A stretch of DNA of 64,000 nt from NCBI RefSeq assembly GCF_024502345.1, contig NZ_JALDNN010000001.1, one strand, 5' to 3'. This stretch comes from Escherichia coli. GTDB lineage: Bacteria; Pseudomonadota; Gammaproteobacteria; Enterobacterales; Enterobacteriaceae. Of this stretch, positions 48,098-53,163 are shown one piece after another. The notes below the pieces were generated by a model. That model did no database searches. It worked only from the letters and a program-made list of their open reading frames with translations, and had not been told where the DNA came from. Each line of letters opens with the position of its first letter. Position 1 is the stretch's first letter. The translations under genes were made by a program, and so were the position numbers.

Positions 48098-48299
48098 GTT
48101 TTGTAACCTGTTGTTAATTACTTCCAATCTCACCGCTTGGGGCATGGATGGGGCAAACTCACTCAATTTCTGGTTTAAAATGGATACCTGATCCTGAAAG
48201 TTTTCTGCCATCCACGATCCGTAAACGCGATAACATGTTTTGTCGGTGATGCTGCCAACTTACTGATTTAGTGTATGATGGTGTTTTTGAGGTGCTCCA

Positions 48300-48575
48300 G
48301 TGGCTTCTGTTTCTATCAGCTGTCCCTCCTGTTCAGCTACTGACGGGGTGGTGCGTAACGGCAAAAGCACCGCCGGACATCAGCGCTATCTCTGCTCTCA
48401 CTGCCGTAAAACATGGCAACTGCAGTTCACTTACACCGCTTCTCAACCCGGTACGCACCAGAAAATCATTGATATGGCCATGAATGGCGTTGGATGCCGG
48501 GCAACCGCCCGCATTATGGGCGTTGGCCTCAACACGATTTTCCGCCATTTAAAAAACTCAGGCCGCAGTCGGTAA
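48300..48575 (+). CDS. insA: IS1 InsA
   Basis: Translation identical to the copy A InsA. Confidence 0.95.
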
Positions 48576-48997
48576 CCTCGCGCATACAGCCGGGCAGTGA
48601 CGTCATCGTCTGCGCGGAAATGGACGAACAGTGGGGATACGTCGGGGCTAAATCGCGCCAGCGCTGGCTGTTTTACGCGTATGACAGGCTCCGGAAGACG
48701 GTTGTTGCGCACGTATTCGGTGAACGCACTATGGCGACGCTGGGGCGTCTTATGAGCCTGCTGTCACCCTTTGACGTGGTGATATGGATGACGGATGGCT
48801 GGCCGCTGTATGAATCCCGCCTGAAGGGAAAGCTGCACGTAATCAGCAAGCGATATACGCAGCGAATTGAGCGGCATAACCTGAATCTGAGGCAGCACCT
48901 GGCACGGCTGGGACGGAAGTCGCTGTCGTTCTCAAAATCGGTGGAGCTGCATGACAAAGTCATCGGGCATTATCTGAACATAAAACACTATCAATAA
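48494..48997 (+). CDS. insB: IS1 InsB'
   Basis: Identical to copy A except for one residue. Confidence 0.9.
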
Positions 48998-49208: not shown

Positions 49209-49640
49209 CTAACCAGGTGTTTGCTGTTGTTCAATGTATTGGCGGATGACGGATATTGGCGCACCTCCGCAGCTACTGGCAAAATAGCCAGCACTCCACA
49301 AAACGCCTTTGTAGTAATACCTGACTGCAATATCTGGTCGATCTCGTCGCAGTCACCTACCCGATACGCCTTTGAGGCTGTTTACCAGACTGGATATCGC
49401 CAGTTTGGGAGGATAGTTAATTAACAAATGGACGTGATCTGGTTCGCCATCCATTTCAACCAGTTCAGCTTCAAAATCAGCACATACATTTGAAAAGTAA
49501 GTGCGTAGTTTTTCTGTCGCGTCATGGTCAAAAATCTGACGTCGGTATCTGGTGACAAAGACCAGGTGAACATGCATCAGGAAAACACAATGCCTTCCAC
49601 GCCGGATATCGGTTTCTTTTTTCACAGACCAAAGTATCAT
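49209..49640 (-). pseudogene. tnpA: IS200-type Y1 (HuH) transposase TnpA, interrupted by an in-frame TGA
   Basis: HuH motif (HVHLL) in the first 95 codons. After TGA at 49353-49355 the same frame continues with ...LWSAGYFASSCGGAPISVIRQYIEQQ, the typical TnpA C-terminus. Confidence 0.75.
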
Positions 49641-49647
49641 TTGGCCT

Positions 49648-50856
49648 GTGAAACGACTACAAGCATTTAAATTCCAGTTAAGACCCGGTGGTCAACAGGA
49701 GCGTGAAATGAGGCGCTTCGCAGGCGCATGTCGTTTCGTTTTCAATCGTGCTCTGGCACGTCAGAATGAGAATCATGAGGCCGGTAATAAATACATCCCT
49801 TACGGGAAAATGGCTTCCTGGCTGGTTGAGTGGAAAAATGCCACTGAAACGCAATGGCTTAAAGATGCCCCGTCACAGCCATTGCAACAGTCACTGAAAG
49901 ACCTTGAGCGGGCTTACAAAAACTTCTTCCAGAATCGGGCTGCTTTTCCCCGATTCAAAAAGCGGGGACAGAATGATGTATTCCGCTACCCGCAGGGCGT
50001 TAAGCTCGATCAGGAAAACAGCCGTATTTTTCTGCCGAAACTGGGCTGGATGCGCTACCGGAACAGCCGTCAGGTCACGGGTGTTGTGAAAAATGTCACT
50101 GTCAGCCAGTCCTGCGGTAAGTGGTACATCAGTATTCAGACAGAAAGTGAAGTATCAACTCCGGTTCACCCTTCAGCATCAATGGTCGGGCTGGATGCTG
50201 GCGTGGCTAAACTCGCCACGCTGTCAGATGGCACAGTCTTTGAGCCTGTAAACAGTTTTCAGAAAAACCAGAAGAAGCTGGCGAGACTTCAGCGACAGTT
50301 AAGCCGCAAGGTCAAATTCAGCAACAACTGGCAGAAGCAGAAACGCAAAATACAGCGACTGCATTCCTGTATCGCAAATATCCGCAGGGACTACCTTCAC
50401 AAAGTCACAACGACCGTCAGCAAAAACCACGCAATGATAGTCATTGAGGATTTGAAGGTCAGCAACATGTCAAAGTCAGCAGCGGGTACGGTCAGCCAGC
50501 CGGGGCGCAATGTCCGGGCAAAATCAGGTTTAAACCGTTCGATACTGGATCAGGGCTGGTATGAAATGCGCCGCCAGCTTGAGTACAAGCAGCTCTGGCG
50601 TGGCGGTCAGGTGCTTGCTGTTCCGCCAGCGTACACAAGCCAGCGTTGCGCGTGCTGTGGTCATACAGCGAAAGAAAACCGCCTGTCACAAAGTAAATTC
50701 AGATGCCAGGTATGTGGATATACAGCGAACGCCGATGTAAATGGCGCTCGTAACATTTTAGCGGCGGGGCACGCCGTTCTTGCCTGTGGAGAGATGGTGC
50801 AGTCAGGCCGCCCGTTGAAGCAGGAACCCACCGAAATGATTCAGGCGACAGCCTGA
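49648..50856 (+). CDS. tnpB: TnpB (OrfB) RNA-guided endonuclease, Cas12 ancestor (OMEGA-type)
   Basis: 402 aa with a RuvC-like core and a C-terminal zinc finger (CxxC...CxxC: QRCACCGH...[18 protein letters not shown]). Confidence 0.85.
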
Positions 50857-50895: not shown

Positions 50896-51621
50896 TCAAC
50901 AAACAGGTTGAATTAACTCCGCGCCCTGGTTTTTGACATTACCTACCGCGCGCGATACCGGGTGCCAGGTGAACTGGTTTGCTGGCACACAGCCGTTGGT
51001 AGCAATTTCTGATGCTTCTTTACCGCCAATCTCTTGCCGCATCCATTCCTGTGCAGCTTCTGGCGACAGAACCAGCGGGCGGCGGTCATGAATGTCTACC
51101 AGACCCTGGTCTGCTGCAGCAGTGACAATTAAAAATCCTTCGGCTTCGTCACCACGCTCAAATGGTGTGCTACCTATCGCGGCCATAAAAATAGGTTGTC
51201 CATCAGCACGATAGATAAAAAAAGGCTGTTTTTTGTCGCCTTCTTTTTTCCACTCAAACCAGCCATCGGCAAAACAGATTGCCCGACCATGTTGCCAGAG
51301 CGGTTTAAACATGCGACTGGTTGCGGCAGTTTCTACGCGGGCGTTAATCAGCGGCGGTTTATCCCACCATCCGGGAGCATATCCCCAGAAAACCGGATCC
51401 AGATGAAGGTGTTCATCACGTTCACTGAGCAGAAGAACTTTGGTTCCCGGCGCGACGTTGTATCTGCCAATGGGTTCGGGATCGTAGGGAATATCGCGTT
51501 CAATATCTTCCGCGAGAAGCGCAAGGTAATCTTCACGCGAGGGAATATCGCGTTCAATATCTTCCGCGAGAAGCGCAAGGTAATCTTCACGCGTTTGGGA
51601 TTGGGCAAAGCGTCCACACAT
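50896..51621 (-). CDS. yedK: SOS-response-associated peptidase (SRAP; abasic-site DNA-protein crosslinking) YedK, with an 18-aa internal duplication
   Basis: Begins MCGRFAQSQTREDYLALLAEDIERDIP. The segment SREDYLALLAEDIERDIP occurs twice in tandem; the remainder matches remembered YedK. Confidence 0.85.
   Translation of the reverse strand: MCGRFAQSQTREDYLALLAEDIERDIPSREDYLALLAEDIERDIPYDPEPIGRYNVAPGTKVLLLSERDEHLHLDPVFWGYAPGWWDKPPLINARVETAATSRMFKPLWQHGRAICFADGWFEWKKEGDKKQPFFIYRADGQPIFMAAIGSTPFERGDEAEGFLIVTAAADQGLVDIHDRRPLVLSPEAAQEWMRQEIGGKEASEIATNGCVPANQFTWHPVSRAVGNVKNQGAELIQPVC
51486..51593. repeat. Perfect 54-bp tandem duplication (two units) inside yedK
   Basis: AGGGAATATCGCGTTCAATATCTTCCGCGAGAAGCGCAAGGTAATCTTCACGCG appears twice back to back; the result stays in frame. 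Confidence 0.9.
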
Positions 51622-51727
51622 AGAAACCTCCTGAGATCATACTGAAAAGAATAGGAGAGGGGGCGGGTAAAATCTATGTGTCAGAGGCAACGATGTTCCC
51701 GCTGTGGGTCACAGCGGGAATGAGGGA

Positions 51728-51961: not shown

Positions 51962-53163
51962 GCGATCTCCTTAGCAGTCTGCGGTGCCGCACGGCGGAAG
52001 AAGCGTTTTTCCCAGCCGATAATCAACATCAGCGCAGCAAACAACAGCAAATATGTCACCAGCAGGCCACCCATCGGACCAAAGGTTTTCAGCAGGTTGA
52101 TTTTGTCCCAGTCGGTGGCCAGCGCCGGAGCGAAATCATCCCAGTAATACGCCAGAATCGTTGAGCCGATCACATTGCCCAGACCGACCCACCAGTAGTG
52201 CACCTGGCCTTCTACCGCGCGGTACATCCAGCCGGTTTCGCAGCCGCCAGCCAGCACGATGCCAAAACCAAACAGTAAACCACCAATTACCGCGTTTGGT
52301 CCCGCCCACATAATTTTGGGTTCAACGCCTAACTGTACGTAACTGAAGATCCCGATGGCACTCACCGCCATACCAATAATGATTGCTTTCGCCATATGGG
52401 TACGTCCGGTGATCCACATATCGCGGAACGCCGAAGTAAAGCAGATTTGCGCACGTTCAATCAGTAAACCAAAGCCGACGCCAAACAGCATTGCCAGCCC
52501 CAGTTTGGGTTGGTTCATCGCTGTGAGCAGCGCCCAGCCCAGCATGCCGAAAAAGACCAGCATCCCGAGACGAAAACGACGCCGCGCCTGATCCGGTTTT
52601 TGCGTCAGCGGTGAGGCGGCAGAAACTTTCTGCATTTTCACGGGAATACGGAAGATGGGCAGCAGGGTAAAGCGCGCGCCAAACCATGAACCAATGGCAG
52701 TGGCGATGGCAAAGAACCAGGCATGCAGCGAGAACTGAGGAATACCGGTAAAGAACGCCGCCAGGTTACAGCCCATTGCCAGACGCGCGCCAAAACCGGC
52801 GATAATGCCGCCAATGATGGCCTGCATAATGCGGATACGGCTGCGCGGCATTCGCAGTTTGACATTGTTGGCCCACAGCGCTGCGGCAAAGCAGCCGCCA
52901 AACATACCGAGGATCATCATCCCGTCGATGCGGGTTAATGGCGATCCTTCCAGATGGATAATTTTAAAGTAACCCCACTCTTCAGCATGGACGCCGAACA
53001 GTTGCAGGAGCTGGCCGCCCCAACGGGTAAATTCACCCGTGACAGCCCAAAAAGTGCCAGTAATGCCAAAATAGTAAGTGGAGAGAATACCCGCCGCGAT
53101 GACCGCGGGGATGGGCGCCCAGAATTTAATCAACCAGGAGTGTTTGAATTGCTGCCATGACAT
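51958..53163 (-). CDS. yedE: YedE/YeeE-family membrane transporter (selenium/sulfur-compound related)
   Basis: 401-aa polytopic membrane protein; its 3' end overlaps the yedF start. Confidence 0.85.
   Translation of the reverse strand: MSWQQFKHSWLIKFWAPIPAVIAAGILSTYYFGITGTFWAVTGEFTRWGGQLLQLFGVHAEEWGYFKIIHLEGSPLTRIDGMMILGMFGGCFAAALWANNVKLRMPRSRIRIMQAIIGGIIAGFGARLAMGCNLAAFFTGIPQFSLHAWFFAIATAIGSWFGARFTLLPIFRIPVKMQKVSAASPLTQKPDQARRRFRLGMLVFFGMLGWALLTAMNQPKLGLAMLFGVGFGLLIERAQICFTSAFRDMWITGRTHMAKAIIIGMAVSAIGIFSYVQLGVEPKIMWAGPNAVIGGLLFGFGIVLAGGCETGWMYRAVEGQVHYWWVGLGNVIGSTILAYYWDDFAPALATDWDKINLLKTFGPMGGLLVTYLLLFAALMLIIGWEKRFFRRAAPQTAKEIA

What the first reader, a model, noticed from the sequence alone, without database searches (positions are those of the whole stretch)
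51486..51593. Perfect in-frame 54-bp tandem duplication near the N-terminus of the SRAP protein YedK
The 54-nt unit AGGGAATATCGCGTTCAATATCTTCCGCGAGAAGCGCAAGGTAATCTTCACGCG is present twice back to back. This inserts 18 residues (SREDYLALLAEDIERDIP) shortly after the N-terminal Cys that forms the thiazolidine crosslink with abasic sites in SRAP/HMCES proteins. A perfect duplication indicates a recent event, either replication slippage or an assembly artefact. It may alter or abolish DNA-protein crosslink formation.
Basis: seen in the sequence. Interest (0 to 1): 0.6.

Follow-up and report, generated by a model that had tools for sequence, protein, structure and literature searches.

The report
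Rare in-frame duplication in yedK
A small E. coli lineage carries a genuine, recent 54-bp in-frame tandem duplication that doubles the first helix of the abasic-site repair protein YedK; it is a rare strain-level allele of a known, dispensable gene, not a new kind of system.

Summary
Window 51486-51593 holds two perfect back-to-back copies of a 54-nt unit inside yedK (50896-51621, minus strand). The result is a 241-aa SRAP protein in place of the usual 222/223 aa (c.29_82dup; p.Pro27_Tyr28insSREDYLALLAEDIERDIP).

It is not an assembly artefact. The exact 241-aa protein is already public (WP_256632771.1). It is encoded in an NCBI draft genome that is 100% identical to the window over 7.7 kb, and in an ENA metagenome contig built with k=141, which is longer than the 108-bp repeat.

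It is very rare. None of 5,426 complete E. coli genomes has the junction, and none of 87 aligned homologues has an insert at this position. Six other YedK alleles modelled with the insert are absent from about 15 billion proteins. Carriers share SNPs and an IS1 junction, which points to a single origin.

The junction has 0 nt of microhomology, so simple replication slippage is not supported.

All catalytic and DNA-contact residues are kept. AlphaFold2 (pLDDT 85.7; TM 0.95 to YedK crystal structures) predicts an intact core, with one repeat copy as helix α1 and the other as a floppy acidic loop. The effect on activity was not tested.

This is an ordinary strain polymorphism of low interest.

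The parts
50896..51621 (-). yedK coding sequence, 241 codons plus stop. It encodes an SRAP (abasic-site processing) protein carrying the duplication.
   Evidence: ORF list. RefSeq annotation of the homologous locus as yedK. Pfam SRAP match over 1-229, E 2.4e-50. NCBIfam PRK09951 at 503 bits against a cut-off of 349. PDB YedK entries at E 1e-146 to 1e-154.
51540..51593 (-). Repeat copy that comes first in coding order (yedK nt 29-82). It encodes the last two bases of the Thr10 codon through Pro27, plus the first base of codon 28.
   Evidence: Translation.
51486..51539 (-). Repeat copy that comes second in coding order (nt 83-136). It encodes Ser28 (last two bases of its codon) through Pro45, plus the first base of the Tyr46 codon. 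AlphaFold2 predicts that this copy forms helix α1 (H29-37).
51538..51540 (-). Novel junction codon TCG (Ser28), created where copy 1 meets copy 2. This is the only new sequence produced by the event.
   Evidence: Coding-strand read-out. The junction probe 51513-51566 is absent from 5,426 complete genomes.
51616..51618 (-). Cys2 codon (TGT), the catalytic N-terminal cysteine. It is unchanged.
   Evidence: Invariant C2 in alignments A1 and A2.
51627..51631 (-). Shine-Dalgarno GGAGG, 5 nt upstream of the ATG. The translation signals are intact.
   Evidence: Read directly from the sequence.

Best explanation
This is a genuine, recent, single-origin germline allele of E. coli yedK. One illegitimate duplication event copied nt 29-82 of the gene head to tail (c.29_82dup), and a small E. 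coli clade has propagated it clonally.

The product is a 241-aa YedK. It keeps Met1-Cys2, strand β1 and every known catalytic and DNA-binding residue, but carries two tandem copies of the segment that forms helix α1. The most likely structural outcome (inferred, not shown) is as follows. One copy, predicted to be the second, packs in the native α1 position against the β-barrel. The other becomes an 18-residue, net -4, poorly ordered surface loop between β1 and α1. The SRAP core stays folded.

I estimate roughly even odds that abasic-site crosslinking is retained at least in part, possibly with reduced stability or reduced ssDNA affinity. In population terms the allele behaves as a neutral or mildly deleterious polymorphism in a dispensable gene.
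For: Real rather than artefact:
- The exact protein is on record as WP_256632771.1 / MCQ7030225.1.
- It is encoded on GCA_050022275.1 contig JBAOKM010000009, which is 100% identical to the window over 7,685 bp.
- It is also encoded on ENA MEGAHIT contig ERZ19695678 k141_16153, which is 99.4% identical.

Rare and recent:
- The junction probe finds nothing in 5,426 complete E. coli genomes. The control shows that 54-nt matches are detected.
- There are 0 hits in JGI metagenome contigs.
- The two copies are 100% identical.

Single origin:
- The window and L003 share 6 SNPs that are absent from three comparator genomes, and they share the same IS1|tnpA junction.
- Insert-bearing versions of six other alleles are absent from about 15 billion proteins, while the K-12 wild-type control is present.

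Not a family feature:
- 87 homologues at 30-98% identity have 15-24 residues in this segment, against 36 here.
- All PDB YedK chains are single copy.

Function-relevant residues kept:
- The DNA and catalytic contacts listed by Wang et al. 2019 (PMC6821365) are Cys2, Arg4, Pro40, Trp67/68, Asn75, Arg77, Glu105, Trp106, Thr149, His160 and Arg162. None lies in residues 10-27, and all are present, shifted by +18.

Fold:
- The AF2 model has pLDDT 85.7 and pTM 0.86. Residues 12-21 fall below pLDDT 50, and a helix is predicted at 29-37.
- Foldseek gives TM 0.93-0.96 and rmsd 1.8 A to 6KBZ, 6KCQ, 6NUH and 6KBU.

Dispensability:
- yedK is a pseudogene with an internal stop in strain RCAD0514.
- About 1,100 of 5,377 genomes match only the 5' 68% of the gene; their 3' end is not homologous.
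Against: No read-level data were available, so the reality of the allele rests on concordance between assemblies. The 100%-identical NCBI draft could be the same strain sequenced again.

L003 differs from the window at 29 SNPs and one 2-bp indel. These include a cluster right upstream of the ATG that matches a different, common E. coli haplotype. This could mean recombination, a strain-mixture consensus, or, less likely, an independent recurrence.

AlphaFold2 is not reliable for the effects of insertions, and the alignment placed all homologues on copy 2, which biases which copy is modelled as the helix. A shallow-alignment run gave pLDDT 44.

No mechanism of origin is identified: there is 0 nt of microhomology.
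Confidence: 0.8

Rival explanations
1. Assembly or sequencing artefact: the extra 54 bp is not present in the organism.
For: No complete RefSeq E. coli genome carries it. Perfect tandem duplications can arise from mis-assembly or polishing errors.
Against: The identical allele is found in an NCBI draft assembly and in an ENA MEGAHIT contig, which come from different data and different assemblers. The k=141 contig requires k-mers that span the entire 108-bp repeat. The protein accessions indicate a further record with a 4.74-Mb contig. The duplication is in frame and the ORF is intact.
Confidence: 0.04
2. Loss-of-function allele: the doubled helix destabilises or misfolds YedK, or the acidic loop blocks the ssDNA groove, so the gene is on its way to becoming a pseudogene.
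For: yedK is inactivated or truncated in other E. coli strains, so selection on it is weak. The insert sits three residues after strand β1, which positions Cys2 and Arg4 in the DNA groove. The insert has a net charge of -4. The N-terminal 50 residues of the model have only moderate confidence, with pLDDT 46-82.
Against: The reading frame, start codon, SD and all catalytic residues are intact. The predicted core is native-like, with TM 0.95. The allele is present in at least two related but distinguishable haplotypes without further disabling mutations.
Confidence: 0.35
3. Recurrent hotspot or phase-variable repeat: the 54-bp unit expands and contracts repeatedly, switching YedK state.
For: The allele appears on two haplotypes that are 0.55% divergent over 5.4 kb. 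Tandem 54-bp repeats can collapse back to one copy by recombination or slippage (general knowledge).
Against: Only 1-copy and 2-copy states were seen. There are no carriers among 5,426 complete genomes and none on six other allelic backgrounds. There is no microhomology or hairpin that would drive recurrent formation. The two carrier haplotypes share derived SNPs and an IS1 junction, which indicates common descent.
Confidence: 0.04

Closest known systems
E. coli YedK (SRAP family, PF02586; PDB 6NUA, 6KBS, 6KBZ, 2ICU)
   Same: It occupies the same locus (yedE-yedF-yedK). It is 98-100% identical to common YedK alleles outside the insert. It has Cys2, Asn, Glu and His at the equivalent positions, a full-length Pfam and NCBIfam match, and a predicted fold with TM 0.95 to the crystal structures.
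   Different: It has 18 extra residues between Pro27 and Tyr28, a second copy of the α1 segment. No solved structure has this, and neither does any of the 87 aligned homologues.
Human HMCES SRAP domain (PDB 5KO9, 6OE7, 6OEB)
   Same: Same fold family and catalytic N-terminal cysteine (Foldseek E about 1e-16, TM about 0.7).
   Different: Only about 27% identity. HMCES has its own insertions and a C-terminal tail, and there is no tandem repeat of α1.
Engineered tandem helix duplications in T4 lysozyme (Matthews laboratory; recalled from memory, not checked here)
   Same: An in-frame tandem duplication of a surface helix. In that system one copy keeps the native position and the other loops out, with the fold preserved. 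This is the behaviour AF2 predicts here.
   Different: That was an engineered model protein. Here the duplication is natural and lies next to an active-site strand, and its consequences are unmeasured.

Membership tests
SRAP / YedK (PF02586, NCBIfam PRK09951) | Full-length match to the family profile above the curated threshold | tested here: met
   Pfam SRAP covers residues 1-229 against model positions 1-214 of 214, E 2.4e-50. NCBIfam NF007413 scores 503 bits against a cut-off of 349, compared with 491 bits for the wild type.
SRAP / YedK (PF02586, NCBIfam PRK09951) | Cysteine at position 2, directly after the initiator Met, which serves as the thiazolidine-forming nucleophile | tested here: met
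   The ORF starts MCGRF. C2 is invariant across 88 sequences.
SRAP / YedK (PF02586, NCBIfam PRK09951) | Conserved active-site residues Asn75, Glu105 and His160 (YedK numbering), plus the DNA-groove residues Arg4, Pro40, Trp67/68, Arg77, Thr149 and Arg162 | tested here: met
   All are present at +18 (N93, E123, H178, P58, W85/86, R95, T167, R180) and lie in invariant or >=90% conserved columns. The residue roles are taken from PMC6821365.
SRAP / YedK (PF02586, NCBIfam PRK09951) | SRAP fold: a β-barrel core flanked by helices, with β1 in a flat sheet | tested here: met
   This is a prediction only. AF2 gives pLDDT 85.7. Foldseek gives TM 0.93-0.96 and rmsd 1.8 A to the YedK crystal structures.
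SRAP / YedK (PF02586, NCBIfam PRK09951) | Forms a covalent thiazolidine crosslink with abasic sites in ssDNA | not testable with these tools
   This needs purified protein and an AP-ssDNA gel-shift assay.
Slipped-strand (microhomology-mediated) tandem duplication | A short direct repeat at the two endpoints, so that the perfect repeat extends beyond 2 x the unit length | tested here: not met
   The repeat is exactly 108 bp, with 0 nt of extension on either side. TRF reports 2.0 copies. DNA folding of the region gives z = -0.19.
Phase-variable / contingency tandem repeat | Copy-number variation of the unit among close relatives | tested here: not met
   5,371 genomes have one copy and none has the two-copy junction. 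Carriers all have exactly two copies.

The most novel reading that the evidence does not exclude
The α1-duplicated YedK is a functional natural variant. Its extra acidic, flexible 18-residue loop sits next to the Cys2/Arg4 strand and could modulate ssDNA binding or the reversibility of the DNA-protein crosslink, for example by acting as an autoinhibitory DNA mimic. On this reading, selection rather than drift maintains the allele in a small E. coli clade.
Probability: 0.08. Interest if true: 0.35.

Novelty: already known. Interest (0 to 1): 0.15.

Why it matters
It matters little beyond strain-level annotation. YedK and the SRAP mechanism are well characterised, and the allele is already deposited and correctly named. 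Its modest value is as a natural experiment on how much insertion the SRAP N-terminal region tolerates. If the variant still crosslinks abasic sites, the β1-α1 connection is a permissive site, which would be useful for tagging or engineering HMCES and YedK. If it does not, this is one more example of yedK decay in E. coli. It is also a clean example of a tandem duplication without microhomology.

Tried and rejected
1. Assembly artefact. Rejected because the allele recurs in independent assemblies.

2. 'Homologues normally carry the repeat'. Rejected using 30 close and 87 diverse homologues and the PDB chains. The 237-aa and 255-aa outliers are C-terminal and N-terminal extensions.

3. Slippage on microhomology or hairpin-driven template switching. 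There is no microhomology. The nearby GGGAT and TCCC repeats would give out-of-frame 65-bp or 56-bp duplications, not 54 bp (own inspection). The DNA fold is unremarkable.

4. Independent recurrence on other alleles. Six constructed insert-bearing alleles are not in the 15-billion-protein collection. This test is limited, because only a few common alleles were tried.

5. First AF2 run with a shallow 30-sequence alignment. It gave pLDDT 44 and was discarded.

6. JGI metagenome junction scan. It returned no hits.

7. Looking for a near-identical complete genome, to date the event. The best match over the 7.7-kb flank is only 99.0%, so the lineage is not represented among complete genomes.

8. 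Promoter and terminator scan around yedK. Nothing informative was found.

Full report
OBSERVATION

The sequence at window 51486-51593 is two identical, adjacent copies of the 54-nt unit AGGGAATATCGCGTTCAATATCTTCCGCGAGAAGCGCAAGGTAATCTTCACGCG. TRF reports period 54, 2.0 copies, 100% identity and score 216, and the repeat finder returns the same two copies. The repeat cannot be extended by even one base on either side. It is the only strong tandem repeat in the 64-kb window.

The repeat lies in a 241-codon ORF on the minus strand, 50896-51621, which begins MCGRFAQSQT. On the coding strand the event is c.29_82dup. The junction creates one new codon, TCG (Ser28, window 51538-51540), so the protein reads ...DIP27-S28REDYLALLAEDIERDIP45-Y46DPEP....

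IDENTITY OF THE GENE

The ORF is E. coli yedK. The evidence:
- It matches the annotated yedK ('SOS response-associated peptidase') in about 5,370 of 5,426 complete E. coli genomes.
- It sits in the conserved yedD-yedE-yedF-yedK context.
- It matches the PDB YedK chains 6NUA, 6KBS, 6KBU and 2ICU at E 1e-146 to 1e-154.
- It matches Pfam SRAP over the whole model.
- It scores 503 bits against NCBIfam PRK09951, where the cut-off is 349.

The single-copy parent allele (223 aa, P0001) is common, seen on at least 1,000 contigs.

REAL OR ARTEFACT

I built a junction-specific probe with 27 nt on each side of the copy1|copy2 boundary, so that a single-copy genome cannot supply the 28-nt seed that megablast needs. 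It found nothing in 5,426 complete E. coli genomes. One search shows that 54-nt matches from this same sequence are detected at E 1e-18, so the negative result is meaningful. A 40-nt junction pattern also found nothing in JGI metagenome contigs.

However, an exact look-up shows that the 241-aa protein is already public as WP_256632771.1 / MCQ7030225.1, with a longest carrying contig of 4.74 Mb. The look-up of encoding contigs returned two further places:
- GCA_050022275.1 contig JBAOKM010000009 (L002).
- ENA MEGAHIT contig ERZ19695678 k141_16153 (L003), seen in two samples.

L002 is 100% identical to the window over 7,685 bp and ends at an IS1 copy, as short-read drafts typically do. The window continues through that IS1, so the window comes from a different assembly. 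L003 is 99.4% identical. A k=141 de Bruijn contig can traverse a 108-bp tandem repeat only if k-mers, and therefore reads, span the whole repeat. The artefact explanation is therefore very unlikely.

HOW OLD IS IT, AND DID IT ARISE MORE THAN ONCE

The two copies are identical, and the allele is absent from every complete genome. The best complete-genome match to the 7.7-kb flank is only 99.0%, so this lineage is simply not represented in that set.

L003 differs from the window at 29 SNPs and one 2-bp indel. A five-way haplotype table shows three things:
- The window and L003 share six SNP alleles that are absent from three comparator genomes. Taken, they also share the same IS1|tnpA junction at 48997/49013.
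- The window has seven private SNPs, clustered in yedE.
- L003 has a private cluster at 51624-51706.

That L003 cluster is itself a common E. coli haplotype, found at >=99% identity in 454 genomes. The pattern fits common descent followed by recombination patches, or a strain-mixture consensus in the metagenome. It does not fit independent recurrence.

Insert-bearing versions of six other YedK alleles are absent from the collection of about 15 billion proteins, while the K-12 wild-type control is present. The six included the K-12 allele, the very common P0004 allele and a codon-aligned junction variant. Single origin in a small clade is the best reading.

MECHANISM OF ORIGIN

The junction has no microhomology. 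Nearby short repeats (GGGAT, TCCC) are out of register and would give 65-bp or 56-bp duplications. The wild-type region has no unusual single-strand structure (z = -0.19). Classical slipped-strand mispairing is therefore not supported. The event was some microhomology-independent illegitimate duplication, and I cannot say which kind.

IS THE INSERT A FAMILY FEATURE

It is not. Thirty enterobacterial cluster representatives have no insert at this position, and the two long outliers carry N-terminal or C-terminal extensions. In an 88-sequence alignment spanning 30-98% identity, the segment between Gln9 and the Tyr that follows the helix is 15-24 residues long (mode 18) in all 87 homologues, against 36 here.

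LIKELY CONSEQUENCE FOR THE PROTEIN

According to Wang et al. 2019 (PMC6821365), strand β1 places Cys2 at the centre of the basic ssDNA groove, and α1 is one of four helices flanking the β-barrel. The DNA and catalytic contacts are Cys2, Arg4, Pro40, Trp67/68, Lys70, Asn75, Arg77, Thr80, Ser84, Arg85, Glu105, Trp106, Thr149, His160, Arg162, Arg206 and Asn210. None lies in residues 10-27. All are retained in the variant, shifted by +18. The start codon, the Shine-Dalgarno sequence (GGAGG, 51627-51631) and the Met-Cys N-terminus are intact.

A first AlphaFold2 run with a shallow alignment was uninformative, at pLDDT 44. With the deeper alignment the model has pLDDT 85.7 and pTM 0.86. It retains β1 (residues 4-7), has residues 12-21 below pLDDT 50, and predicts a helix at 29-37. 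It superposes on YedK crystal structures with target-normalised TM 0.93-0.96 and rmsd 1.8 A.

The prediction is therefore that the second copy forms α1 and the first copy loops out as a flexible, net -4 linker directly after β1. Two caveats apply. The alignment placed the homologues on copy 2, which biases that choice, and AlphaFold2 does not measure stability.

An acidic loop beside a basic DNA groove could plausibly lower ssDNA affinity, but this is inference. Whether crosslinking is retained is untested, and I put it near even odds.

yedK is dispensable in nature. It has an internal stop in strain RCAD0514, and about 1,100 of 5,377 genomes match only the 5' 68% of the gene; their 3' end is not homologous. 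A neutral or mildly deleterious polymorphism is therefore the economical interpretation.

COMPARISON WITH WHAT IS KNOWN, AND VERDICT

The gene is a bona fide member of the SRAP/YedK family by every feature testable here. The exception is the biochemical activity itself, which cannot be tested with these tools. The duplication is a rare, already deposited, uncharacterised allele.

It is not a slippage-type duplication, because the microhomology criterion is not met. It is not a phase-variable repeat, because no copy-number variation is seen among relatives.

The finding is real but ordinary, and I score interest at 0.15. The most novel reading still open is a selected, functionally modulated YedK variant, at about 8% probability and of modest interest even if true.

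Noticed in passing
window 49353-50856: An IS200/IS605-family element lies 40 bp downstream of the yedK stop codon. It has an intact 402-aa TnpB/InsQ RNA-guided nuclease gene (49648-50856, +) and a truncated 95-aa tnpA (49353-49640, -). The same element, with tnpA annotated as a pseudogene, sits at this site in many complete E. coli genomes.
   Followed up: partly
window 48245-48997 (a second copy near 3861-4632): An IS1 copy sits between fliE and the tnpA remnant. In strain UK_Dog_Liverpool this interval instead holds emrE-ybcL-ybcM, about 2.8 kb (L001 1311-4117). This suggests an IS1-associated deletion or rearrangement in the window's lineage. The same IS1 junction is present in L002 and L003.
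   Followed up: partly
L005 2384-3055 (NZ_CP034106.1, strain RCAD0514): yedK is annotated as a pseudogene with an internal stop in this otherwise closely related locus, so natural inactivation of yedK does occur.
   Followed up: no
window 50896-51130 (3' third of yedK), compared with about 1,100 complete genomes: About 20% of complete E. coli genomes match only query positions 236-726 of the yedK query, which is the 5' 68% of the gene. They have a 'helix-turn-helix domain-containing protein' annotated next to it, so an alternative 3' end or neighbour of yedK is common in the species (hits H64-H69).
   Followed up: no
window 52038-53139 (yedE) and 51709: Seven SNPs are private to the window's haplotype relative to L003 and three complete genomes, and they cluster in yedE. 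This looks like a small recombination patch.
   Followed up: no
L003 positions corresponding to window 51624-51706 (yedF-yedK intergenic region): The metagenome contig that carries the duplication switches to a different, common E. coli haplotype within 30 bp upstream of the yedK ATG. There are 7 differences, and 454 genomes match at >=99%. This is either real recombination or a strain-mixture consensus in the MEGAHIT assembly.
   Followed up: partly
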